In this document: positions 46,446-56,530 of the stretch, in pieces
How positions within the stretch are numbered: position 1 is the first letter of the stretch
How the letters are laid out: every line of letters starts with the position of its first letter
NCBI GenBank assembly: GCA_963677895.2
Contig: CAXXGJ010000002.1
Coordinates: forward strand, 64,001 to 128,000
Length of the DNA stretch: 64,000 nucleotides
Direction of reading: 5' to 3'
Origin: Treponemataceae bacterium
Lineage (GTDB): Bacteria > Spirochaetota > Spirochaetia > Treponematales > Rectinemataceae
The notes under the pieces: model-generated
What the model was told of the DNA's origin: nothing
What the model saw: only the letters and a program-made list of their open reading frames with translations
Database searches by the model: none
Made by a program: the position numbers and the translations under genes

Positions 46446-46511
46446 CAAACCCTGACAAATCCTGGCCCGGCGGGCTCCGAACCGCCGGCTGGCTCTTGCG
46501 GGAGGGGAATC

Positions 46512-46784
46512 ATGAAAGCCATCCATGCCGTCGTCGAGGGCGAAGTCCAGGGCGTCGGATTCCGCTATTCGGCCATGAGGGAAGCGAAAGCGCTCGGCCT
46601 CACGGGCTGGGTGCGCAACGCCGAGGATGGATCGGTGGAGGTTTGGGCTGAAGGCGAAGAGAGCTCCCTCGATGAATTCTCCCGATGGCTGGAACATGGG
46701 CCGGATTACGCGCGCGTCGAGAAACTGCGCGTCACCAGGGTAAAGGCTTTAGGCATCTACGCTTCTTTCTTGACGATTCCGTAA
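46512..46784 (+). CDS. acyP: Acylphosphatase
   Basis: [21 protein letters not shown]. Confidence 0.9.
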
Positions 46785-46831
46785 CCTCCACTGACGCTGT
46801 TTTCCTACGCAGACGGTATTTTCCTATCTTA

Positions 46832-46874
46832 TGTGCGCTGTCGCACAGACTCGATCCCCGCCTCGGATTATCCT
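46832..46874 (+). promoter_or_regulatory. CRP/FNR-like site 1 plus -10 box
   Basis: TGTGCGCTGTCGCACA(GAC), 21 nt, TATCCT. Confidence 0.7.
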
Positions 46875-47187
46875 TCATTCAGTCCAGTGAATAACGGGGC
46901 AAGGGGGCTGTATGAAAAATAATTTTAAAAGAGAGGAAGCGTCATCCATGCGGTACGGGAACGGCGGGAGCCAGATGGAAGATCCGGCGAGACTGTCTCC
47001 GTCCATGAGCAGCATGGCGCTGCTCTCGCGGGGCGGCAATCGCGAAATGAAGGATTCTTGTATCACGCCAAAAGTAATAGAGCTCGGCGATGTCGCCGAC
47101 AGGTCCTGCTTCAACGGGCAAGACCTGTAAAAGACATGCAGGTTTTGCCTGCCGAAATTTTCCATCATCCAAACCACGGAGGTTTCC

Positions 47188-47715
47188 ATGAAACGTATCA
47201 TTCCCTTATTGATGTTGCTGGCTCTACTGCCGGTCGGCGTCTTCGCCCTTGATTTCTATGCTGGCGCCAACGCCTATTATGCCAGCCTGATCCAGCCGGC
47301 CGACATTCAGGCTATCGACACCGCCAACCTCAACATGGCTGACTTCTCTTTCGGCGGAGAGGCGCGCATTGTCGGTCACCTTCTTTGGGCCAGCGCCATC
47401 GGAACCTACACTCCAGCCGACGCCAACATGCCGCATCGTCTCGATGTAATGCTGGACGGCGGTGTCGGCCTCAGGCTGGGCATCGTGCGCGCCGGTATCG
47501 GAATCGGACCCAATTACGGGATCGAAATGGGCGACAACGCGGGGAACTACTTCAAGACGGGCGCCAATATGCGCCTCACCGGCGATGTCCTGCTGGGACC
47601 TTTCTCGGTCGGATTGAGCTGGATCAGCAAGATCGAATTCACCCGCGCATCGTTTGTCGAGGCTTTCGAAAACCCTTATGGCCAGCTTGGCCTGGCGGTT
47701 CTCTACAAACTGTAG
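47188..47715 (+). CDS. Putative outer-membrane beta-barrel protein
   Basis: Signal peptide (VFA/LDF), alternating strands, C-terminal LGLAVLYKL; GGAGG RBS. Confidence 0.6.
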   Translation: MKRIIPLLMLLALLPVGVFALDFYAGANAYYASLIQPADIQAIDTANLNMADFSFGGEARIVGHLLWASAIGTYTPADANMPHRLDVMLDGGVGLRLGIVRAGIGIGPNYGIEMGDNAGNYFKTGANMRLTGDVLLGPFSVGLSWISKIEFTRASFVEAFENPYGQLGLAVLYKL

Positions 47716-47757
47716 GCGCGGCCGCTCCCGCCGAAGAGTATTCGGCAAGAAGATAAA

Positions 47758-47790
47758 GAAAGGGCACCGGAAAATTTCCGGTGCCCTTTT
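47758..47790. terminator. Bidirectional terminator
   Basis: AAAAGGGCACCGGAAA-A-TTTCCGGTGCCCTTTT between convergent genes. Confidence 0.8.
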
Positions 47791-47825
47791 CGTACCCAGG
47801 CGGTACTGTTTTTCCTATCGTTTTA

Positions 47826-48905
47826 TCACATCGTCGGTTCAGTCACCGCATCGGCATCCAGGGTCACCGCGGTCTGCGCGAGCAGCCTGCCGTTCACCAT
47901 GGCGCCGGTGTTGACTTCCACCAAGGTTTTGCAAAGGATGATTCCCTTGAAGTCCGAGGTCGTGCCGAGCGTGGTCTGTCCGGCCACCTGCCAGAAAATA
48001 TTCTTGGGCTGCGCGCCGCCGCTCAGGGTGACGATGGTTCCGTTGCCCACCGTGAGGTCCTGCGCTATCTGGAATATCCAGACATCGTTGGCGCCGCCGT
48101 TGAGCGTGACGCTGTTGTTAATCAGAACTCCCGTTCCCCATACGTACAGGCCGGGAACGATGGTCTGTCCGCTGAGATCGCCCGCGTGCAATTCCGTGGC
48201 GTCGGGCAACGTGCGTCCCGCGGCGTCGGTGTAGGCGATTTCCATGTCGCCGATGGCCGTCGTCATGTTGGATGGCGTAGGCGGCGTATAGTCAGCCGCG
48301 TAGATGCTGCCGGTGACGTAGGATGATGTCGAGAATACGTTCGAAGCGTCCATGATGAGGTCAAATCCGGTGATGTAGGTAGCGGCGGCAGGACTCACGC
48401 CGATGTCGCCGGTGATCGCCGTCGTTCCCGTCGTCGATACTCCGGTTTTAGCCAGGATGACAAAGTTGCCCGCGGTGCCGAGATTTACGGGCGACGGACC
48501 GGAAGCCAGGTTGACCCCGGTTGTAAAGCTCCATGCGTACTCAGCTTCAAGAGCATTTCCCGCAACGTCCGTGGCCGCGATCGTTATCTTCGCCGTATAG
48601 ACAACGCTGGATGTAAGTTCTGTCGTCGGTTCCAGCGTGGCGACGAGATCGACATAGGAGACGGAAGCGGGAACGGGCGTCGCGCCCTGGCTCAACGTAA
48701 AGGAAAGCGCCGTGATCGTCGAGGAGTCCATCGCTTCGCTGAAGGTCGCGGTGACGCTCCTGTTCCTGGCGACATCGGTCGCCGAGGCGGCCGGCGTCGT
48801 CAGATCGACGGTGGGAGGAATGACGTCGTCATTGTTGACGGGACTTTTGCATCCCGCGATGACAAGAACCATCAGTAAAATAGGCATAAACCACATCTTT
48901 CTCAT
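47826..48905 (-). CDS. DUF3494 ice-binding-family lipoprotein with one Ig-like (Big_5) domain
   Basis: VIAGC-KSPV; VTATFSEAMD; VNLGTAGNFVILAKTG, AYTDAAGR, PGLYVW, WIFQI, NIFWQV, NGRLLAQTAVTL. Confidence 0.9.
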   Translation of the reverse strand: MRKMWFMPILLMVLVIAGCKSPVNNDDVIPPTVDLTTPAASATDVARNRSVTATFSEAMDSSTITALSFTLSQGATPVPASVSYVDLVATLEPTTELTSSVVYTAKITIAATDVAGNALEAEYAWSFTTGVNLASGPSPVNLGTAGNFVILAKTGVSTTGTTAITGDIGVSPAAATYITGFDLIMDASNVFSTSSYVTGSIYAADYTPPTPSNMTTAIGDMEIAYTDAAGRTLPDATELHAGDLSGQTIVPGLYVWGTGVLINNSVTLNGGANDVWIFQIAQDLTVGNGTIVTLSGGAQPKNIFWQVAGQTTLGTTSDFKGIILCKTLVEVNTGAMVNGRLLAQTAVTLDADAVTEPTM

Positions 48906-49004
48906 AAAAAGCACCTCCTTAATCAGTGCATAAAATTCTGAAAATAGGGCGCGAAGTCCGCCATGGTCGTGACGGACGCCGCACCCCGCATTCCGATGCT
49001 CAAA

Positions 49005-50084
49005 TTACAGTGCTGGTTCCACGATGGTATTGGCATCCATCGTGACCGCGGTCTGCGTAAGCAGTCTGCCGTTCACGGTTGCTCCCGCAGCCAGGGTTAT
49101 CGCGCCCGCCGACATGACTACGCCTTCCATATGGGAAGTCGCGGCGAGGGCGACGGCGCCGCCCACCTGCCAGAAAATGTTCTTGGGAAGCGCTCCGCCG
49201 GTCAGGAGGACCTGAGCCGTCGCGGCTTCGGTGAGCCCGCTGGCGATCTGGAATATCCAGACATCGTCGGCGCCGCCGTTGAGGGTGACGTTGGTCGTGA
49301 TCGACACTCCGGTTCCCCATTTATAGAGGCCGGGCGCGAGGGTCATGCCGCCGATTTCTCCGGCTCCCAGCTCCGAGGAATTGGGATCGAGCCGGCCGGC
49401 CGCGTCATCAAAGGCAGCCTGCATCGCAAGCACCGCCGCGGTCAGGTTCGTAGGCGTAGGCTCCGCGTAGTTCGCCGCATAGACATTCCCCGTCACCAAG
49501 GTCGAAGTGGCGAAGGTGTTCGACACATCCATCGTCAAGCCGAATCCAGTCATGGCCGCCGCATCGATGGGGCTCACGGCGATGTCGCCGGTGATCGAGG
49601 TCACTCCGGTGGTCGTTATTCCCGTCTTGGACAGGATCGCGTAATTCCCGGAGGTTCCGAGATTCACCGCCGCGGGACCGGCGGGAGGATTGGCCGTGGT
49701 CGTGAAGGTCCATACCTTATCGGCCGCAAGCGCATTGCCAGCCGCATCGGTGGCGCCTGTCGTGATCGTGGCCGTATAGACAGCGCTGGCCGCGAGATCG
49801 TTGGTGGGGTTAAAGGTCGCCACCTTGTCGGCATAGCTGACCACGCCGTCGATCGCGGTGACGCCCTGCATCAGGGTGAAGTTCGCCGCCACGATGGTCG
49901 CAACATCCATGTCTTCGCTGAAGGTGGCGGTGACATTGCTGTTCCGCTCTACCGCGACCGCGGCGTCAGCCGGAACTGTGGAATTGACAGTAGGAGCCGT
50001 GAGGTCCTCTTCAACCACGGGATTGCTGCAGCCGCTCAGTGAAAGGGCTACCATAAGCAGTCCCAGAAACAACATCTTCTTCAT
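49005..50084 (-). CDS. DUF3494 ice-binding-family lipoprotein with one Ig-like domain
   Basis: LSGC-SNPV; same Ig and DUF3494 motifs; alternative start at 50120. Confidence 0.9.
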   Translation of the reverse strand: MKKMLFLGLLMVALSLSGCSNPVVEEDLTAPTVNSTVPADAAVAVERNSNVTATFSEDMDVATIVAANFTLMQGVTAIDGVVSYADKVATFNPTNDLAASAVYTATITTGATDAAGNALAADKVWTFTTTANPPAGPAAVNLGTSGNYAILSKTGITTTGVTSITGDIAVSPIDAAAMTGFGLTMDVSNTFATSTLVTGNVYAANYAEPTPTNLTAAVLAMQAAFDDAAGRLDPNSSELGAGEIGGMTLAPGLYKWGTGVSITTNVTLNGGADDVWIFQIASGLTEAATAQVLLTGGALPKNIFWQVGGAVALAATSHMEGVVMSAGAITLAAGATVNGRLLTQTAVTMDANTIVEPAL

Positions 50085-50147
50085 AATCGATATCTCCTTG
50101 TTCTTCATTCTCTTGTTCATGTTCAAAAATCCTCCTTCTTATCTGCA

Positions 50148-50251
50148 AGAATACGTATGGAATCCGAATTGGTCTGTTCGGTAGCACACACAGTCCGGCG
50201 CCGTCTGTGTGTGCTGGCGCACAGACGAGGTTGCTCCGCGAGAATCATATT
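50148..50251. promoter_or_regulatory. Back-to-back CRP/FNR-like sites 2 and 3 with divergent -10 boxes
   Basis: Minus: TGTGTGCTACCGAACA (50190-50175), 21 nt, TATTCT. Plus: TGTGTGCTGGCGCACA (50208-50223), 22 nt, CATATT. Confidence 0.7.
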
Positions 50252-50316
50252 TATGGGCAGATGGGGAGGATCGCTTCTATATGAATCATATGTCCAAGAG
50301 AAAAAGGAGAAAAACA

Positions 50317-51714
50317 ATGAAGAAGATTTTAGTCTCGATGCTCGTGCTGGTCGCGTTTTTCGCGGTCAGCTGCAAAAGTCCGGTGGCTGAGGACGTTGTC
50401 GCGCCCACGGTTGATCTGACGAGTCCAGCCGATCTCGCCACCAATATAGCGATAACGGCGGACGTGACGGCGACCTTCAGCGAAGCGATGGATTCCGCGA
50501 CCGTCGTCGCGGCGAACTTTACGGTAAGCCAGGGAGCGACGCCAGTCGCGGGCACGGTGAGCTTTGCCGATGATGTCGCCACCTTCAATCCGACCAGCGA
50601 TTTCGCGGCGGGAACCGAGTACACGGCAACGGTCTCGACCGGTGTCATGGATCTGGCAGGCAACGCGCTGGCCTCCGCCAAAGTATGGACCTTTACGACA
50701 GCGGCGTTGGTCGACATCATCGCTCCCGTAGTGAGTTCGATCAGTCCCGCGGCCCTTGCCGTCGATGTGGCCACAACATCGAATGTCACCGCTACCTTCA
50801 GCGAAGCCATGACTTCCGGAACGATCATCGCCGCGAACTTCACGTTGACGCAGGCGGCTACGCCCATTCCCGGCGCGGTCAGCTATCTGGGCAACGTCGC
50901 CACGTTCAATCCTGACAGCAATCTAGCCTTCAACACGATCTACACCGCAACCGTGAAGACGGACGTCACCGACCTGGTAGGCAACCATCTCGCGGTCAAC
51001 AAGGTATGGACCTTCACGACCGTAGCCGCCCCAGCGGCGGGCCCCGCGGCCGTAGACCTTGGAACGGCGGGCAATTACGTAATCCTGGCGAAAACCGCCA
51101 TCAGCACCGTTCCAACCTCAGCGGTAACGGGCAATATTGGGCTGAGCCCGGCCGCCGCGAGCTTCATCACGGGATTCTCACTCGTAGCGGACGCCACGAA
51201 TGTGTTCGCGACAGCGAGTCAGCTTACCGGAAGGGCTTATGCCGCCGATTATGCTTCTCCCACCCCCACGAACCTGACCACCGCCGTGAGCAATATGGAA
51301 GCGGCGTATACCGATGCCGCGGGGCGACCGACGCCGGACTTCCTGAATCATGGAGCCGGAGAGATAGGCGGCTTGACCCTCGCGCCCGGACTCTATAAGT
51401 GGACCACGAATCTCTTGATCACCACCAACGTCACGCTGAACGGCGGCGCCAACGATGTCTGGATCTTCCAGATATCGGGCGGCATCACCCAGGCTTCCGG
51501 CGCGAGCGTCAATCTGACCGGCGGCGCTTTAGCCAAGAATATCTTCTGGCAAGCGTCGGATGATGTCGCGCTTGGCACGACCGCCCATATGGAAGGCATC
51601 GTGCTTTGCGCCACGGCCATCCACCTCGGCACCGGCGCTTCCGCCAATGGCAGGCTGCTGGCCCAGACCGCCGTCACGATAGACGGCAGCGCGGTAGTCG
51701 AACCCGTACTGTAG
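50317..51714 (+). CDS. DUF3494 ice-binding-family lipoprotein with two Ig-like domains
   Basis: AVSC-KSPV; two VTATFSEAM...WTFTT repeats; DUF3494 motifs. Confidence 0.9.
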   Translation: MKKILVSMLVLVAFFAVSCKSPVAEDVVAPTVDLTSPADLATNIAITADVTATFSEAMDSATVVAANFTVSQGATPVAGTVSFADDVATFNPTSDFAAGTEYTATVSTGVMDLAGNALASAKVWTFTTAALVDIIAPVVSSISPAALAVDVATTSNVTATFSEAMTSGTIIAANFTLTQAATPIPGAVSYLGNVATFNPDSNLAFNTIYTATVKTDVTDLVGNHLAVNKVWTFTTVAAPAAGPAAVDLGTAGNYVILAKTAISTVPTSAVTGNIGLSPAAASFITGFSLVADATNVFATASQLTGRAYAADYASPTPTNLTTAVSNMEAAYTDAAGRPTPDFLNHGAGEIGGLTLAPGLYKWTTNLLITTNVTLNGGANDVWIFQISGGITQASGASVNLTGGALAKNIFWQASDDVALGTTAHMEGIVLCATAIHLGTGASANGRLLAQTAVTIDGSAVVEPVL

Positions 51715-51758
51715 ACGAATCGATAGATCCGCCCGCAATGCGAGGCTAATGTAAAAAA

Positions 51759-51798
51759 GAAGGGGCTGCCCGGGAAGAACTTCCCGGGCAGCCCCTTC
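51759..51798. terminator. Terminator hairpin between convergent IBP and catalase genes
   Basis: GAAGGGGCTGCCCGGGAAG-AA-CTTCCCGGGCAGCCCCTTC preceded by A-tract. Confidence 0.8.
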
Positions 51799-51850
51799 AA
51801 TTATTTCTACTGATCAACCTGCCGCATCGACCCGATGATCGGATTCTTGC

Positions 51851-53356
51851 CTACCGGCTGGTTGCCCCGACACGTTCTTCCTGAGACATGGCCGCGAGCC
51901 TCTTCACTTCGGCGCGGTCCAGCTTCAGTCCTTGGGCGACGCGTTCCCCGTACTCGACATCCACCTTATAGAACAGGGCCGTCTGGCGCAGCTGAATGCG
52001 CGTTTGCGCCTTGCCCAGATGGGATACGATATTGCTGACGAGATGGTCGCGGTCCGTGTCGGACATGACCTTCCTATACAGATCGCCTGCCTGGACAAAG
52101 TCCACGTCCCCGCTTTCGTAGACATGCCGCGTCGCCGTCCCTGAAACCGTAAGGGGCGGCGCGGAGAATGACGGATCGGGCGCGGGACCGCCGACGCTGT
52201 TGGGCCAGTAGTTGGGACTCCCGCCGCCGTTCGGGCCCGACCGCATGGGGCCGTCGCGCTGATAGCCGCTATCCATGGAAGCCTTAGGCGCATTGATAGG
52301 CAGAAGATTGAAGTTCGGGCCCAGCCTGTGCCTCTGCGTATCGGGATAGCTGAACAGGCGTCCCTGCAGAAGCCTATCCGGCGACGCCCCGATTCCCGGC
52401 ACGAAATTGCCTGGCGCGAAGGCGATCTGCTCCACTTCGGCGAAATAATTGGACGGATTGCGGTTGAGCACCATGCGTCCAAGGGGAAGGAGCGGATAAT
52501 CCGCGTGCGGCCAGACTTTGGTTATATCGAAAGGATCGAATCGATAGGTTTCGGCTTCCGCCGGCGTCATGATCTGCACGGACACTCGCCACGCGGGATA
52601 CTCGCCGCGCTGTATGCTGTCGAAGAGATCCCTCGTCGCGTGGTCGGGATCGACGCCGGCGAGACGAGCGGCTTCTTCCCGAACGAGATTCTTGATCCCC
52701 TGTTCCGTCACGAAATGCGTCTTGACCCAGCAGTAACCGCCCTTTTCGTCGTACCACATGAAGGTGTGGCTGCTGAAGCCGTGCATGTGACGGTAATCGA
52801 GAGGGATGCCGCGGTCGGAGAAAAGAATCGTCACTTGATGAATGGACTCCGGAGTAAGCGAGAGAAAATCCCAGAACATATCGGGGTCTTTCAGGTTGGT
52901 CGCGGGATTGCGTTTTTGGGTATGGATGAAATCCGGGAATTTTATCGCGTCGCGGATGAAGAACACCGGCGTATTATTGCCCACCAGATCGTAGTTGCCT
53001 TCCTCAGTATAGAATTTGACGGCGAAACCGCGGGGATCGCGGTCCGCGTCGGCGGAACCCTTTTCGCCGCCCACCTGCGAGAATCGCGCGAAGATTTCCG
53101 TGCGCTTTCCCGGGCTGGAAAGAAATTTTGCGCGCGTATACTTCGTCATGTCATGGGTAACCTCGAAGTATCCGCCCGCTCCGGCGCCTTTCGCGTGCAC
53201 AACCCTTTCGGGCACGCGTTCCCTGTCGAAGTGCGCCAGTTTTTCCAGGAGGTGGGTATCCTGGATGAGCGTGGGGCCATCAGCTCCCGCCGTCATCGAG
53301 TTCAGGTCATTCTCGACAGGTCTCCCCGTATTCGTCGTCAATATATTTTTTTTCAT
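51851..53356 (-). CDS. katA: Monofunctional small-subunit heme catalase
   Basis: [45 protein letters not shown]. Confidence 0.95.
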
Positions 53357-53403
53357 GATTTTCTCTCTCCCGCCCATATGCCGCGATTTTCGATCGACAG
53401 GAA

Positions 53404-53850
53404 TTACTTTCCCGAAGTCAAAGAGCGGTAGATCAGCTGCATCAGCTCTTCGAAAAGGTGGAAGTATCCGGTATTGTCTTTCTTGTAGGCAGTAACTGTA
53501 TCGTTGATGCCCGATCCCATTTTTTCCATCACGTCGCTGGCCAGGGTCAAGCTGCCTTTTGCCGTGTTGGCGACATGCTCGACTTCCTGGATGATCGCGG
53601 GAAATGAAACCTTCAGCTGAGAGGTCGTGTCCTTGAGATCGCCGCTTATCTGCTCGAGATCCCCGATTATGGCGGGCACTCTTCTGAAGGAATGCTTTAT
53701 GGAATCTTTATTGATCTCCACAAGCGGACTGATGATTCCCACCATTTTTTTTATGTTCAGGAGTATGGGGACGAGAATGGCGCCGATCAGGATTCCCATC
53801 ATGCAGACCAGGAAAATCATCAGATCAGGCAACGTGAATTGTATTGTCAT
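53404..53850 (-). CDS. DUF948/YoxC-like membrane-anchored coiled-coil protein
   Basis: N-terminal TM helix followed by amphipathic coiled coil; next to YtxH gene. Confidence 0.55.
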
Positions 53851-53865
53851 GGTTTTTGCCCCGCT

Positions 53866-54195
53866 CTACGCTGAAGCCGTTCCGCTTCTCTTTTTCCTGG
53901 CCGCCGGCTTCGGCTGCAAGGTGCTTTTCAGTTCCTGAGCCGCGTGGGCCGTTGTTTCCTTTACGATTTCCGCCTTGCGCCTGAGTTTTTCCCTGATGGT
54001 CTCCAGGGTTTCTTCCGCTTTCTTTTTCAGCTCCTCCCTGGTTTCTTTCCCCGATTTCGGCGCGTAGAGAATTCCTTTCAGCAGTCCGATAGTGGCGGCT
54101 ATGCCCATTCCCAGCGCGAAATTTATGGAAGCCTTTCTTCGGTCCTCGTCCCTTTTTTTCCTGTTTACCATATCCAGCATATTATTGAAAAACAT
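53866..54195 (-). CDS. YtxH-domain general stress protein
   Basis: FALGMGI..GILYAPKSGKETREELK; GGAGG RBS. Confidence 0.8.
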   Translation of the reverse strand: MFFNNMLDMVNRKKRDEDRRKASINFALGMGIAATIGLLKGILYAPKSGKETREELKKKAEETLETIREKLRRKAEIVKETTAHAAQELKSTLQPKPAARKKRSGTASA

Positions 54196-54298
54196 ACAAA
54201 TTCCTCCGCAGAAAATTCTGCTGATCTCGAGACGCCCTGCCGGTCGCATTGGACCGGCTAAGCTCTACTCGGTCGAAATAATATCGGCGATCGCGCGG

Positions 54299-54475
54299 TT
54301 ACATGATCTTTTTGATTTCTGCCTTGGCGTCGCCGAGTCCAGCCTGAACGGCCCCTTTGATTTTTTTGGCCTTTCCCTTTTTCTCCATTTTTTTATCGCC
54401 GACGACAATGCCTATCGCCTGCTTGACCTTGCCTTTCACTTCGTCGATGCGTCCCTTGATTTGATCATTATTCAT
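54299..54475 (-). CDS. csbD: CsbD family stress protein (58 aa, below ORF-track cutoff)
   Basis: MNNDQIKGRIDEVKGKVKQAIGIVVGDKKMEKKGKAKKIKGAVQAGLGDAKAEIKKIM; GAGGAG RBS. Confidence 0.85.
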   Translation of the reverse strand: MNNDQIKGRIDEVKGKVKQAIGIVVGDKKMEKKGKAKKIKGAVQAGLGDAKAEIKKIM

Positions 54476-54547
54476 TCTTGTCTCCTCTCGTGAAATCTTT
54501 TGGAAATGGTCCCATTTATCAACGTTCCCATTCTCTTGCCTGATCCA

Positions 54548-54665
54548 AAGATACTTTCAAGGCCTAGCCGGGTCTGTGCGGCAGCACACATAGGGCAGGG
54601 CAAAGGCGGGCCGGACAGTCTATGTGTGCTGCCGCACAGACCGGTTCGAGCCTGGAACGTATGCT
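54548..54665. promoter_or_regulatory. Back-to-back CRP/FNR-like sites 4 and 5 (23-bp perfect inverted repeat) with divergent -10 boxes
   Basis: TGTGTGCTGCCGCACA on both strands (54590-54575; 54623-54638), each 21 nt from TATCTT / TATGCT. Confidence 0.75.
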
Positions 54666-54726
54666 TTTACGTATATGGAGGACTGCGCTTCCAAAATTCC
54701 GGAAAATCAAAAGAGGAGATAATCGT

Positions 54727-55806
54727 ATGAAGAAAATGGCCTTATTGGCTCTAGTATCTATTATCCTAATTGTGGCGGGCTGCAATAGCCCCGTTGTCGG
54801 AGGCGATGCCACCGCTCCCACGGTCGATGCCACCTCTCCCGCCGCCGCGGCAACCTCCGTCGGCAGAAATATCGGCGTGACGGCGACCTTCAGCGAAGAG
54901 ATGGACGCCGCGACGATCGGCGACGCGACCTTTACCCTTTCTATGGGGGGGAATCAGGTCGCCGGCGCCGTAACCTACGCGAACATGGTGGCGACCTTCG
55001 ATCCAACCGCCGATTTATCGGCTAATGCCGTGTATACCGCCACGATCACGACAGGCGCCAAGGATGTGTCGGGCAACGCTCTCGCGGAAAACCGCGAATG
55101 GGTTTTCACCACGGGCGGCACGTCGGCTTCCGGTCCCGTGACGGTGAACCTGCGGACCGCCGGCGATTTCGCGATCCTGACCAAGGCCGGCATCGGTACG
55201 ATTCCGACCTCGGTGGTGACGGGCGACATTGGCGTGAGTCCGATAGACTCGACGGCCATCACGGGATTCTCGCTGGTGATGGACGGCTCGAATACTTTCG
55301 CCACATCCAGCCAGGTCGTCGGGAAGGCTTACGCGGCCAATTATGTTCCGCCTACCCCCACGAAAATGACCACCGCCGTCAGCGACATGGAAACAGCCTA
55401 CACCGACGCGGCCGGCAGGGCCACGCCCGATTTCATCGAACTGGGCAGCGGAGAGATCGGCGGACTCACGCTGGTGCCGGGCCTCTATAAATGGGGCACC
55501 GATGTGCTGATATCCAACGATGTAACGCTCAACGGCGGACCGACCGATGTCTGGATATTCCAGATATCCGGCGGAATAACGCAAGCCTCCGGCAAAAGCG
55601 TAAACCTGACGGGCGGCGCCTTGCCCCAGAACATATTCTGGCAGACCTTCGGTCCCGTCGCCCTCGATACCACCGCGCATTTCGAAGGAGTCGTGATGTC
55701 GTACACGGAAATAACCCTGGCCACTGGCGCGTCCGTGAATGGCAGGCTCCTGTCGCAGACTGCCGTCACGATAGATTCCGGCACCGTTACGCAGCCTTCG
55801 CCGTAA
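54727..55806 (+). CDS. DUF3494 ice-binding-family lipoprotein with one Ig-like domain
   Basis: IVAGC-NSPV; Ig repeat; DUF3494 motifs. Confidence 0.9.
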   Translation: MKKMALLALVSIILIVAGCNSPVVGGDATAPTVDATSPAAAATSVGRNIGVTATFSEEMDAATIGDATFTLSMGGNQVAGAVTYANMVATFDPTADLSANAVYTATITTGAKDVSGNALAENREWVFTTGGTSASGPVTVNLRTAGDFAILTKAGIGTIPTSVVTGDIGVSPIDSTAITGFSLVMDGSNTFATSSQVVGKAYAANYVPPTPTKMTTAVSDMETAYTDAAGRATPDFIELGSGEIGGLTLVPGLYKWGTDVLISNDVTLNGGPTDVWIFQISGGITQASGKSVNLTGGALPQNIFWQTFGPVALDTTAHFEGVVMSYTEITLATGASVNGRLLSQTAVTIDSGTVTQPSP

Positions 55807-55814
55807 GTCGGGAT

Positions 55815-55847
55815 GAAGGGCCGGCCCGACCGGGCGGCCCTTCATTT
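55815..55847 (+). terminator. Terminator-like hairpin
   Basis: GAAGGGCCG-GCCCGACCGGG-CGGCCCTTC-ATTT. Confidence 0.6.
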
Positions 55848-55883
55848 GCCGCATAAGATTTTGGAACCGAAAGGAGGAGCATT

Positions 55884-56078
55884 GTGAATACATTGAACGC
55901 AAAAAGCGCTACATATGGATTGAACGTCGAGTTCGGAAATAAAGCGAGATATATCGGCGTCGCGGACATGTTTTTTGAAGAGAGAAAAGTCGAAGAGTTG
56001 CTGAATAGAGTAGAGAAGCGAATAGGAAGGTCGAAGGAAGACGTTGTCGGATACATCGATACGATGGCAACCAGATGA
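55884..56078 (+). CDS. Small hypothetical protein
   Basis: AAAGGAGG RBS before GTG; ATGA overlap with next gene. Confidence 0.55.
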   Translation: MNTLNAKSATYGLNVEFGNKARYIGVADMFFEERKVEELLNRVEKRIGRSKEDVVGYIDTMATR

Positions 56079-56530
56079 TCAATGTCGTTGGTATTAAGAA
56101 TCGCATAACTTTTCATAAATACACCGAAGCGGCGAAAGCCATCAAGTCCGAACTCGCCCAAAAATTTCCCGGCGTCTCCTTTTCGATCAAATCGAAATCG
56201 TTCGCGAGCGGAGACAATGTAACGATAGATTGGACGGGAGGCCCGACAAGCGATGCCGTCGAATCGATAGTGATCAAATACCGGTACGGAACCTTCGACG
56301 TGTCGAAAAATCTCTATCTCTACGACAGTCGCGACGATGCCCTCCCGCAGGCGCAGTATGTGATGGTTTCCCACCATCACAGCGATTCCTCGAAAAAAAA
56401 GGCCAAGCAGGAAATCGCCGATGGTTTCAATGTGGACATGAATGACAGCCAGGCGGTGTTCGCCGCCTTCGGCGACTGGCCGCAGCCTTTGATCCGCGCG
56501 AAGCTTGAGCATCGCAGCCCGTTCAATTAA
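56075..56530 (+). CDS. LPD29 (large polyvalent protein-associated domain 29) protein
   Basis: AAKAIKSELAQKFPGVSFSIKS...IDWTGGPT..VESIV.KY.YGTFD pattern recognised. Confidence 0.7.
   Translation: MINVVGIKNRITFHKYTEAAKAIKSELAQKFPGVSFSIKSKSFASGDNVTIDWTGGPTSDAVESIVIKYRYGTFDVSKNLYLYDSRDDALPQAQYVMVSHHHSDSSKKKAKQEIADGFNVDMNDSQAVFAAFGDWPQPLIRAKLEHRSPFN

What the first reader, a model, noticed from the sequence alone, without database searches (positions are those of the whole stretch)
46832..54665. Five-copy CRP/FNR-like site defines a regulon of ice-binding lipoproteins, an OMP and stress genes
Seen: cores TGTGCGCTGTCGCACA (46832+), TGTGTGCTACCGAACA (50190-), TGTGTGCTGGCGCACA (50208+) and TGTGTGCTGCCGCACA (54590- and 54623+). 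Each is followed by GAC and then a -10-like hexamer 21 nt after the core (TATCCT, TATTCT, TATCTT, TATGCT; CATATT at 22 nt). Known: a 16-bp TGTGA-N6-TCACA core 21 nt from the -10 is class II CRP/FNR geometry (-41.5). Here A/T is replaced by Y/G and the asymmetric spacer is conserved. The OMP, IBP and csbD-katA units each have one site, arranged back-to-back at divergent pairs. Inference: an uncharacterised CRP/FNR-family activator, not encoded in this window, runs a general-stress/surface-adhesion programme in place of SigB/RpoS.
Basis: partly seen in the sequence, partly recalled or inferred. Interest (0 to 1): 0.86.

Follow-up and report, generated by a model that had tools for sequence, protein, structure and literature searches.

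The report
Stress-gene boxes of an unstudied Crp regulator
The five repeated 16-bp boxes are real and most likely are docking sites from which an unstudied Crp/Fnr-type regulator, encoded elsewhere in this spirochaete genome, switches on stress and surface-protein genes; the same regulator-and-box pair is found in several bacterial phyla.

Summary
Observation confirmed: five boxes at the stated coordinates, none expected by chance. Each has GAC, then a -10-like hexamer 21 nt (once 22 nt) after the core.

The window holds a third of a larger set. The genome has 15 oriented boxes of the form ta-TGTGYG-N4-CGMACA-GAY-N18-TAnnnT. Fourteen of them lie 58-155 nt upstream of a same-strand ORF. Targets are csbD-ytxH-katA, four DUF3494/Big_5 lipoproteins, three small beta-barrel OMPs, cbpA, a second csbD, DUF5670, RNB-hydrolase-sod-bfr and a hybrid kinase.

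The likely regulator is a 251-aa Crp/Fnr protein at G000:C6:177829-178581, with boxes on both sides. Among 31 related genomes the strict box occurs only in four that carry a >80% identical ortholog (12, 13, 8 and 3 copies; 0 in the other 27). In relative G002 the regulator gene adjoins this very cluster.

Homologs in Proteobacteria and Acidobacteriota are also flanked by boxes, upstream of CsbD, KGG, BON, SOD and ferritin genes.

Best reading: a class II-type activator of a general-stress-like regulon. No TSS, binding or expression data exist. "In place of SigB/RpoS" is untested.

The scan had already noted this pair seven times on other DNA. No paper describing it was found.

The parts
46832..46850 (+). 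Box S3 (TGTGCGCTGTCGCACA + GAC), facing the leader ORF and the OMP gene
   Evidence: identical box in G001 and G002
46869..46874 (+). -10-like hexamer TATCCT, 21 nt after the core
46912..47130 (+). 72-codon ORF or leader between box S3 and the OMP gene; no Pfam hit; highly conserved in G001 and G002
47188..47715 (+). 175-aa signal-peptide protein, predicted 8-stranded beta-barrel outer-membrane protein; family found only in Rectinemataceae-type records
47759..47789 (.). Hairpin between the convergent OMP and IBP genes (terminator-like)
47826..48914 (-). Lipoprotein with Big_5 + Ice_binding (DUF3494) domains; second gene of the unit driven by box S4
49005..50126 (-). Lipoprotein with Big_5 + Ice_binding domains; first gene downstream of box S4 (likely ATG at 50120)
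50148..50153 (-). -10-like hexamer TATTCT of box S4
50172..50190 (-). Box S4 (TGTGTGCTACCGAACA + GAC)
50208..50226 (+). Box S5 (TGTGTGCTGGCGCACA + GAC)
50246..50251 (+). -10-like hexamer CATATT, 22 nt after the core
50317..51714 (+). Lipoprotein with two Big_5 domains + Ice_binding domain
51759..51798 (.). 18-bp-stem bidirectional terminator-like hairpin between the convergent IBP and katA genes
51851..53377 (-). Catalase (last gene of the csbD unit)
53404..53850 (-). 148-aa membrane protein, no family hit
53866..54249 (-). YtxH-like protein
54299..54475 (-). CsbD-like protein, first gene downstream of box S6
54548..54553 (-). -10-like hexamer TATCTT of box S6
   Evidence: conserved in G002
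54572..54590 (-). Box S6 (TGTGTGCTGCCGCACA + GAC)
54623..54641 (+). Box S7 (TGTGTGCTGCCGCACA + GAC)
54660..54665 (+). -10-like hexamer TATGCT of box S7
54727..55806 (+). Lipoprotein with Big_5 + Ice_binding domains

Best explanation
The boxes are operator sites of one Crp/Fnr-family transcription factor, the 251-aa protein at G000:C6:177829-178581, outside the window. A dimer is inferred to bind the dyad TGTGYG-N4-CGMACA. On the promoter side the box runs straight into GAC, the core of a weak -35 (CAGACN against TTGACA). A -10 (TAtnnT) follows after a 17-bp spacer, which puts the box centre at about -41.5. That is the position from which CRP and FNR contact RNA polymerase and activate class II promoters. 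The regulator is therefore inferred to switch on about 14 transcription units with general-stress content: CsbD x2, YtxH, catalase, SOD, bacterioferritin, a CbpA-type DnaJ with a MerR-like partner, and DUF5670. In this lineage the set also includes envelope proteins, namely four DUF3494/Big_5 lipoproteins and three 8-stranded OMPs.

Shown here: the boxes, their fixed geometry, their placement before genes, their co-occurrence with the regulator gene, and the conserved recognition helix. Inferred: binding, activation rather than repression, the TSS, and the inducing signal. The signal is unknown; candidates are a near-invariant Cys/His set in the regulator, or the box-driven hybrid kinase next to its gene.
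For: 1. Statistics: 5 boxes in the window against 0 in 100 shuffles. The strict 19-mer pattern gives 12 hits in G000 and 0 for the reversed-pattern control in all 31 genomes.

2. Geometry: of the 15 oriented boxes in G000, 12 have TAnnnT exactly 18 nt after GAY, 2 have TAnnnC there, and 1 has CATATT one nt further. In 34 boxes from four related genomes, positions not fixed by the search are conserved: T at -1 in 33, A at 0 in 28, and the -10 T in 32, A in 32, final T in 30 (these rows are orthologous and not independent).

3. Placement: 14 of 15 boxes have a same-strand ORF start 58-155 nt after the core start. A consensus scan finds no canonical sigma-70 promoter at any box, as expected for a 3-of-6 -35.

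4. Regulator link:
- Boxes lie on both sides of the regulator gene in G000 (C6:178665 and 177618-177636).
- They also flank it in G001 (both paralogs) and G005.
- In G002 the regulator gene (C58:40839-41573) directly adjoins the OMP-IBP-csbD cluster, with boxes at C58:41713, 45132, 45168, 50003 and 50053.

5. Co-occurrence: strict boxes number 12, 13, 8 and 3 in G000, G001, G002 and G005, the four genomes with a >80% identical ortholog, and 0 in the 27 others.

6. Across phyla: 120 boxes in 61 of 80 homolog loci against 14 in 13 for reversed sequence. Within 400 bp outside the gene ends the figures are 60 boxes in 43 loci against 3 in 3.

7. Protein:
- Pfam cNMP_binding (31.5 bits) and HTH_Crp_2 (59.8 bits), both above cut-off.
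- Full-length CRP fold, TMt 0.80 to M. tuberculosis CRP.
- The recognition helix GVRREGVT is invariant in 16 sequences from three phyla.
- It keeps the Arg-Glu pair that aligns with the SRETVGR helix of E. coli CRP.
- The other three Crp-like proteins of G000 lack that pair.

8. Regulon content recurs elsewhere: CsbD x2, KGG, BON x3, SOD, ferritin-like, DUF4112, STAS and REC genes lie downstream of boxes in Methylobacter, Nitrosomonas, Methylotenera and Pyrinomonadaceae.
Against: No experimental datum exists: no TSS, no expression, no binding. No RNA run was listed for this DNA.

A box overlapping the -35 could equally serve a repressor.

The relatives carrying the strict box are close kin, so the co-occurrence is few independent events. 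The intergenic alignments are 85-94% identical overall, which makes the footprinting weak.

In G014, G022 and G174, which carry 66-70% identical homologs, boxes lie next to the regulator gene but are not enriched genome-wide over the control. Methylophilus flavus gave 0 hits against 3 control hits for the relaxed pattern.

In G000 the box upstream of the regulator gene faces the divergent kinase gene, so autoregulation is not evident here.

One of the 15 boxes (C6:177618 +) points into the 3' end of the regulator gene with no ORF downstream and is doubtful as a promoter.
Confidence: 0.72

Rival explanations
1. The same regulator binds the same boxes but represses: by covering the -35 it keeps the stress genes off until a signal releases it.
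For: The box overlaps the -35 region. Crp/Fnr-family proteins can repress from such positions (general knowledge, recalled).
Against: The spacing to the -10 is exact in 14 of 15 boxes, and the -35 is weak at 3 of 6 matches with no canonical promoter detected. Both are expected for polymerase recruitment. An operator that merely blocks needs neither.
Confidence: 0.12
2. The element is the promoter of an alternative sigma factor, with an extended -35 such as GCACAGAC plus TATnnT, and the dyad is incidental.
For: The element is directional, with invariant spacing to the -10. The genome encodes about nine sigma-70-family proteins, including three RpoD/RpoS-like paralogs.
Against: The promoter-distal arm TGTGYG is as conserved as the proximal arm. 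One palindromic box with GAC on both sides serves divergent directions (C6:177618-177636). Boxes co-occur with and flank the Crp-like gene in three phyla. Boxes with TA flanks on both sides also exist.
Confidence: 0.05
3. The boxes belong to a different regulator, such as another Crp-like paralog or an unrelated dimeric protein, and the adjacency to the C6 gene reflects only that this gene is itself a target.
For: G000 has three other Crp-like proteins. One, of 193 aa, lies about 0.7 kb upstream of box S13.
Against: Their recognition helices (PESLSRIRK, ARPSLSRE, NRVTISR) lack the Arg-Glu pair that fits a TGTG arm. Only the C6 protein tracks the box across genomes and phyla.
Confidence: 0.06
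4. The boxes are REP-like or mobile-element repeats without promoter function.
For: The sequence is repeated and palindromic, and the regulator family is patchy and partly plasmid-borne.
Against: 14 of 15 boxes are oriented toward a nearby ORF with a -10 at fixed distance. None was seen inside the coding parts of the window. Box and -10 are conserved while the inter-box spacer diverges with indels between G000 and G002.
Confidence: 0.02

Closest known systems
E. coli CRP (CAP) at class II promoters such as galP1; box TGTGA-N6-TCACA centred at -41.5 (recalled knowledge)
   Same: Same protein fold and the same Pfam domains. Same TGTG/CACA outer arms and the same 16-bp register. Same distance to the -10 and the same overlap with a weak -35. 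The Arg-Glu pair of the recognition helix is retained.
   Different: Only 18% identical, with no hit to the NCBIfam CRP equivalog. Box positions 5-6 and 11-12 are YG/CG instead of A-N/N-T. The residue aligned with the last Arg of CRP's SRETVGR helix is Glu200 here and varies in the family, while an extra invariant Arg194 precedes the pair. There is a C-terminal extension with a CxC motif. The effector is unknown and the regulon is stress genes, not catabolism.
NtcA (cyanobacterial nitrogen regulator), the closest solved structure by sequence
   Same: Best PDB sequence match (2xgx, E = 2e-5). It is also a class II-type activator of the Crp/Fnr family (recalled).
   Different: Far below the NtcA equivalog cut-off (25 against 245 bits). 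The NtcA helix has R-V-T-V-T-R where this protein has R-E-G-V-T-E. The NtcA box GTA-N8-TAC (recalled) differs.
FNR/Anr-type oxygen sensors and their TTGAT-N4-ATCAA box, including the Burkholderia cenocepacia lxa motif TGA-N6-TCA (PMC3721108, passages read)
   Same: Same superfamily and promoter geometry. Homologs of the present regulator occur in Burkholderia replicons.
   Different: No N-terminal cysteine cluster: the first Cys is C154. The box is different. The lxa motif and its Anr-related candidates are a separate system.
Sigma-factor-based general stress regulons: SigB of Bacillus, RpoS of Enterobacteria, EcfG of Alphaproteobacteria (recalled)
   Same: Overlapping gene content: CsbD, YtxH, catalase, Dps/ferritin, SOD, KGG (YciG-like), BON (OsmY-like) and CbpA.
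   Different: Control would be by a DNA-binding activator at housekeeping-type promoters, not by a replacement sigma factor. No stress induction has been shown here.
CgrA of Rhodospirillum centenum, a cGMP-binding Crp homolog controlling cyst formation (PMC4681086, passages read)
   Same: A Crp-family regulator of a dormancy and stress programme.
   Different: CgrA uses the canonical TGTGA-N6-TCACA box.

Membership tests
Crp/Fnr superfamily transcription factor (the regulator at G000:C6:177829-178581) | N-terminal cNMP-binding-type beta-barrel domain | tested here: met
   PF00027 31.5 bits against cut-off 27.5; strands 41-119 in the model
Crp/Fnr superfamily transcription factor (the regulator at G000:C6:177829-178581) | C-terminal Crp-type helix-turn-helix | tested here: met
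   PF13545 59.8 bits against cut-off 27
Crp/Fnr superfamily transcription factor (the regulator at G000:C6:177829-178581) | Overall fold like solved CRP/FNR/NtcA structures | tested here: met
   Model pLDDT 85.9; Foldseek TMt 0.80, E = 4e-14 to M. tuberculosis CRP; GlxR, FNR and NtcA also match
Crp/Fnr superfamily transcription factor (the regulator at G000:C6:177829-178581) | Homodimer binding a dyad-symmetric site | not testable with these tools
   The dyad box fits a dimer; neither dimerisation nor binding was assayed
E. coli-type CRP (cAMP receptor protein) orthologs | Membership of the curated CRP equivalog and the canonical box TGTGA-N6-TCACA | tested here: not met
   No PRK11753 hit for this protein; 18% identity; box positions 5 and 12 are Y and G
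FNR-type oxygen sensors | N-terminal cysteine cluster and box TTGAT-N4-ATCAA | tested here: not met
   No Cys before residue 154; box differs
Class II activator-dependent promoter | Activator site centred near -41.5, overlapping the -35 | tested here: inconclusive
   Met by arithmetic relative to the -10 in 14 of 15 boxes; the TSS is not mapped (no RNA holder listed)
Class II activator-dependent promoter | Poor -35 hexamer, so that the promoter depends on the activator | tested here: met
   The -35 reads CAGACN, 3 of 6; no canonical promoter was called at any box in 46500-56200
Class II activator-dependent promoter | Transcription depends on the activator | not testable with these tools
   Needs a knockout, a reporter or in vitro transcription
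DUF3494 ice-binding-like proteins (the four lipoproteins) | Ice_binding (PF11999) domain | tested here: met
   E = 1e-70 to 1e-78 over the full 208-position profile in all four. Ice binding itself is untested. Lipobox cysteines were read.
Small 8-stranded outer-membrane beta-barrels (OmpX / OmpA-TM / OprF-N class) | Signal peptide plus an eight-stranded antiparallel barrel | tested here: met
   Model pLDDT 80.3 with eight strands; Foldseek E = 5e-5 to OmpX and TMt 0.77 to OprF-N; no sequence-family hit

The most novel reading that the evidence does not exclude
This Crp-family protein is the master switch of a transcription-factor-based general stress response, a functional counterpart of SigB, RpoS and EcfG. 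It would sense its signal through a near-invariant Cys3His-type set: C154, H158, C231 and C233, lying between the start of the DNA-binding domain and a C-terminal extension absent from E. coli CRP. It would travel between phyla together with its box as a plug-in regulon. In Rectinemataceae it would have captured lineage-specific surface proteins, namely the DUF3494 lipoproteins and the small OMPs.
Probability: 0.3. Interest if true: 0.78.

Novelty: new variant of a known kind. Interest (0 to 1): 0.58.

Why it matters
The regulator family is very large: 3,957 clusters at 50% identity with E <= 1e-30. It occurs in Beta- and Gammaproteobacteria, Acidobacteriota and Spirochaetota, and on Burkholderia, Ralstonia, Cupriavidus and Pseudomonas replicons. 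Sources name it only 'Crp/Fnr family'.

If the reading holds, three things follow:
- Many small stress proteins of unknown regulation (CsbD, YtxH, KGG, BON, DUF5670) gain a regulator and a testable operator.
- General-stress-type gene sets would be shown to run from an activator rather than an alternative sigma factor.
- An anaerobic groundwater spirochaete would be seen coupling catalase, SOD and ferritin with a remodelling of its surface lipoproteins.

The box is specific enough to predict regulons by pattern search: there was zero background in 27 related genomes.

Tried and rejected
RNA evidence: the look-up of sequencing runs listed 21 runs, and no listed holder is on record as RNA. Read laying was therefore not used, and the TSS and expression stay untested.

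Literature: seven full-text searches were answered. Terms included the half-site letters with Crp or Fnr, CsbD with Crp and related terms, and Rectinema. None returned a paper describing this box or regulator. Two leads were read as passages and rejected:
- CgrA (PMC4681086) uses TGTGA-N6-TCACA.
- The B. cenocepacia lxa motif (PMC3721108) is TGA-N6-TCA, with Anr-like candidate regulators.
Subscription-only papers and supplements were not searched.

B. cenocepacia homolog locus: it has no annotation in that collection and no good box within 9 kb.

Rfam over 46500-56200: only sub-threshold hits on the terminator hairpin.

Phylogenetic footprinting among G000, G001 and G002: the IBP intergenic region is 94% identical, too close to be informative. 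The csbD/IBP region, at 85%, shows boxes and -10 conserved and the spacer diverged.

Relaxed bare 16-mer in G014, G022 and G174: not enriched over the control in G014 and G174.

Sigma factors: the RpoS and SigB/F/G equivalog models had no hit above cut-off. This neither shows nor excludes a sigma-based stress response.


Full report
**1. Observation**

The pattern TGTGNGCTNNCGNACA matches exactly five times in the window. The coordinates are 46832 (+), 50190 (-), 50208 (+), 54590 (-) and 54623 (+). None of 100 dinucleotide-preserving shuffles gave a match.

Reading the sequence confirms the rest. Each core is followed by GAC. A -10-like hexamer starts 21 nt after the core in four cases: TATCCT, TATTCT, TATCTT and TATGCT. 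In the fifth it starts 22 nt after (CATATT).

- Box S3 faces a 72-codon ORF and a 175-aa signal-peptide protein.
- S4 faces two Big_5 + Ice_binding lipoproteins.
- S5 faces a third such lipoprotein.
- S6 faces csbD-ytxH-(148-aa membrane protein)-catalase.
- S7 faces a fourth lipoprotein.

Strong hairpins at 47759-47789 and 51759-51798 close the convergent units. The 175-aa protein has no family hit. Its model is an eight-stranded barrel (pLDDT 80.3) matching OmpX, the OmpA transmembrane domain and the OprF N-terminal barrel. Its homologs form a small family of 22 clusters, and those that carry a name are Rectinemataceae or Rectinema.

**2. The window holds only part of the set**

The window is G000:C2:64001-128000. 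G000 is a 3.51-Mb assembly of 39 contigs with 56% G+C. A scan of ten core positions with up to one mismatch gave 101 hits, counting both orientations.

Fifteen of those hits are oriented boxes of the form ta-TGTGYG-N4-CGMACA-GAY. Among the 15:
- 12 carry TAnnnT exactly 18 nt after GAY.
- 2 carry TAnnnC at that place.
- 1 carries CATATT one nt further.

Three further hits have GAC but no -10 (C18:232581, C38:339397, C6:292628). I take these as chance.

GAC is the core of a -35 hexamer that reads CAGACN. The spacer to the -10 is then 17 bp, and the box centre lies 29.5 bp before the first base of the -10. That equals -41.5 if the -10 spans -12 to -7. This arithmetic is the only basis for the class II assignment, because no TSS is known.

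Fourteen of the 15 boxes have a same-strand ORF start 58-155 nt after the core start. The fifteenth (C6:177618 +) is the mirror side of a palindromic box. It points into the 3' end of the regulator gene, and I count it as doubtful.

Outside the window, the downstream genes are (Pfam):
- DUF5670.
- Two further paralogs of the small OMP.
- A DnaJ/CbpA-type protein with a MerR_2 partner.
- Small membrane proteins and a second CsbD.
- An RNB exonuclease, a hydrolase, Fe/Mn-SOD and a ferritin-like protein.
- A lipoprotein and an alkaline phosphatase.
- A REC-PAS-HisKA-HATPase hybrid kinase followed by a TldD/PmbA-like protein.

No canonical sigma-70 promoter is called at any box in 46500-56200. This fits a weak -35.

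**3. The regulator**

G000 encodes four Crp-like proteins. One, of 251 aa (C6:177829-178581, minus strand), has a box about 90 bp upstream of its start (C6:178665). That box faces the divergent kinase gene. A palindromic box lies about 200 bp past the gene's stop (177618-177636).

Its properties:
- It passes both Pfam domain cut-offs.
- It models as a full-length CRP fold (pLDDT 85.9; TMt 0.80 to M. tuberculosis CRP).
- It is only distantly related to anything solved (NtcA, E = 2e-5).
- It is only distantly related to anything curated.

Aligned with E. coli CRP, its helix R194-R195-E196-G197-V198-T199-E200 matches S-R-E-T-V-G-R. The Arg-Glu pair is therefore kept. From recalled structural work, that pair reads the G:C pairs of TGTG. 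The last Arg is replaced, and an extra Arg precedes the pair. This fits a box that keeps TGTG/CACA but differs at the inner positions.

The other three Crp-like proteins have helices without the pair.

**4. Comparative evidence in relatives**

Among 31 related genomes, homologs with E <= 1e-100 occur in G000, G001 (two copies), G002, G005, G014 and G022.

| Genome | Strict box TGTGYGNNNNCGMACAGAY | Relaxed pattern |
|---|---|---|
| G000 | 12 | 15 |
| G001 | 13 | 15 |
| G002 | 8 | 13 |
| G005 | 3 | 8 |
| G014 | 0 | 3 |
| G022 | 0 | 3 |
| Other 25 genomes | 0 | 0-3 |
| Reversed-pattern control | 0 everywhere | 0-1 |

In G014 and G022 the hits are TGTWCG variants lying next to the regulator gene.

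In G002 the regulator gene lies directly beside the orthologous OMP-IBP-csbD cluster. In G001 and G005 boxes flank the regulator genes.

Between G000 and G002 the csbD/IBP intergenic region is 85% identical. Both boxes and both -10 hexamers are conserved, while the spacer between the boxes has substitutions and indels. These genomes are close kin, so this is few independent observations.

**5. Beyond the lineage**

Titles of records with 82-92% identical regulators name Rectinemataceae, Treponemataceae or Spirochaetes MAGs. I use this only as a taxon placement.

In an even sample of 201 genomes of the phylum (G000 included), only G000 and one other have the protein at E <= 1e-50. Homologs of 58-72% identity occur in many Beta- and Gammaproteobacteria and in Acidobacteriota. 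They also occur on plasmids and secondary replicons of Burkholderia, Ralstonia, Cupriavidus and Pseudomonas.

A quick maximum-likelihood tree of 85 rows was built from all rows with an alignment of at least 200 residues. It puts the spirochaete rows in one group (SH-aLRT 91) and the acidobacterial rows in one clade (99). Both lie among proteobacterial lineages in a poorly resolved backbone. This fits transfer between phyla but does not prove a direction.

Across the 80 homolog loci (607 kb), boxes were counted against a reversed-sequence control:

| Count | Real sequence | Reversed control |
|---|---|---|
| Boxes in all | 120 | 14 |
| Loci with at least one box | 61 | 13 |
| Boxes within 400 bp outside the gene ends | 60 | 3 |
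| Loci with such a box | 43 | 3 |

Whole-genome scans with the relaxed pattern gave these counts, hits against control:

| Genome | Hits | Control |
|---|---|---|
| Methylobacter marinus | 10 | 1 |
| Nitrosomonas nitrosa | 8 | 0 |
| Marinobacter sp. | 7 | 0 |
| A Pyrinomonadaceae genome | 5 | 2 |
| Methylophilus flavus | 0 | 3 |

I sent 30 box-downstream ORFs, hand-picked, to Pfam. Twenty-one had hits: CsbD x2, KGG, BON x3, DUF4112, PLDc_N, ferritin-like, SOD, STAS x2, REC x2, OmpA-type x2 (one protein reached through two loci), DUF3185 and others. Nine had none. ORF choice there was by longest frame and is rough.

The recognition helix is invariant in 16 sequences from three phyla and nearly so in 98 representatives (R194 in 93, R195 in 95, E196 in 91). 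This explains why the box is the same across phyla.

**6. Mechanism, and what is shown versus inferred**

Shown:
- A directional composite element made of dyad, GAC, 17-bp spacer and -10.
- Its position before genes.
- Its co-occurrence and adjacency with one Crp-family gene.
- A conserved recognition helix compatible with the arms.

Inferred:
- A dimer of that protein binds the dyad and activates from about -41.5, as CRP and FNR do at class II promoters.

Repression from the same site is the main rival. An alternative sigma factor, another regulator and REP-like repeats are less likely, for the reasons given under the rivals.

The signal is unknown. Two observations are leads only:
- C154, H158, C231 and C233 are present in 97, 97, 88 and 91 of 98 representatives. 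The last two lie in a C-terminal extension that E. coli CRP lacks.
- The gene next to the regulator is a box-driven hybrid sensor kinase, in G000 and also in L065.

**7. The phrase 'in place of SigB/RpoS'**

The genome has about nine sigma-70-family genes. None passes the RpoS or SigB/F/G equivalog cut-offs. Three RpoD-like paralogs score 219-271 bits on the RpoS model. The claim cannot be judged from this.

'Surface adhesion' for the DUF3494 lipoproteins is also untested.

**8. Novelty**

Sources name the protein only 'Crp/Fnr family transcriptional regulator' or 'CRP-like cAMP-binding protein' (120 best listed of 8,000 scored). My seven literature searches found no description.

Earlier notes of this scan had reported the same regulator-and-box pair seven times in Proteobacteria, as an undescribed stress-island regulator. 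I re-derived the pair independently here.

What is new in this window:
- The pair occurs in Spirochaetota.
- The regulon is dispersed genome-wide, with about 14 promoters.
- It has recruited lineage-specific surface lipoproteins and OMPs beside catalase, SOD and ferritin.

It is a new variant of a known kind: a Crp/Fnr activator with its own box. It is not a new kind of system.

Noticed in passing
G000:C6:177829-178581 (outside the window; L001 1429-2184, minus strand): The regulator family has a near-invariant Cys/His set: C154 in 97, H158 in 97, C231 in 88 and C233 in 91 of 98 representatives, with C165 in 80 of 98. The CxC lies in a C-terminal extension absent from E. coli CRP. It may be a metal or redox site.
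   Followed up: partly
window 46912-47152: The 72-codon ORF between box S3 and the OMP gene is more conserved in G001 and G002 than the promoter spacer. It is followed by a small hairpin at 47138-47152. It could be a small protein or a regulatory leader. It has no Pfam or Rfam hit.
   Followed up: partly
G000:C6:178733-180256 (L144 5234-6757): A REC-PAS-HisKA-HATPase hybrid kinase is transcribed divergently from the regulator gene and carries the box upstream. The same arrangement occurs in L065. It is a candidate signalling partner.
   Followed up: no
G000:C38:287413-287994 (L008 1414-1995): A second Crp-like protein of 193 aa, with an FNR-like helix (PESLSRIRK), lies about 0.7 kb upstream of box S13, which faces the RNB-hydrolase-sod-bfr genes.
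   Followed up: partly
L068: A contig titled Candidatus Shapirobacteria carries an 81% identical regulator and groups inside the spirochaete clade in the tree. It is probably a mis-binned contig.
   Followed up: no
G001:C3:1242762-1243505 and G001:C5:842315-843067: The sister genome has two paralogs of the regulator (81% and 97% identical to the G000 protein), each flanked by boxes.
   Followed up: no
window 47759-47789 and 51759-51798: Two long perfect hairpins (14 and 18 bp stems) lie between convergent genes and are likely bidirectional terminators. The second gives sub-threshold Rfam ftsZ-DE hits that are probably meaningless.
   Followed up: partly
window 47188-47715; G000:C18:242006-242521; G000:C6:290500-290997: Three paralogous small barrel OMPs, all box-driven, belong to a family with only 22 clusters in the 5.8-billion-protein collection. 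All named members are from Rectinemataceae or Rectinema.
   Followed up: partly
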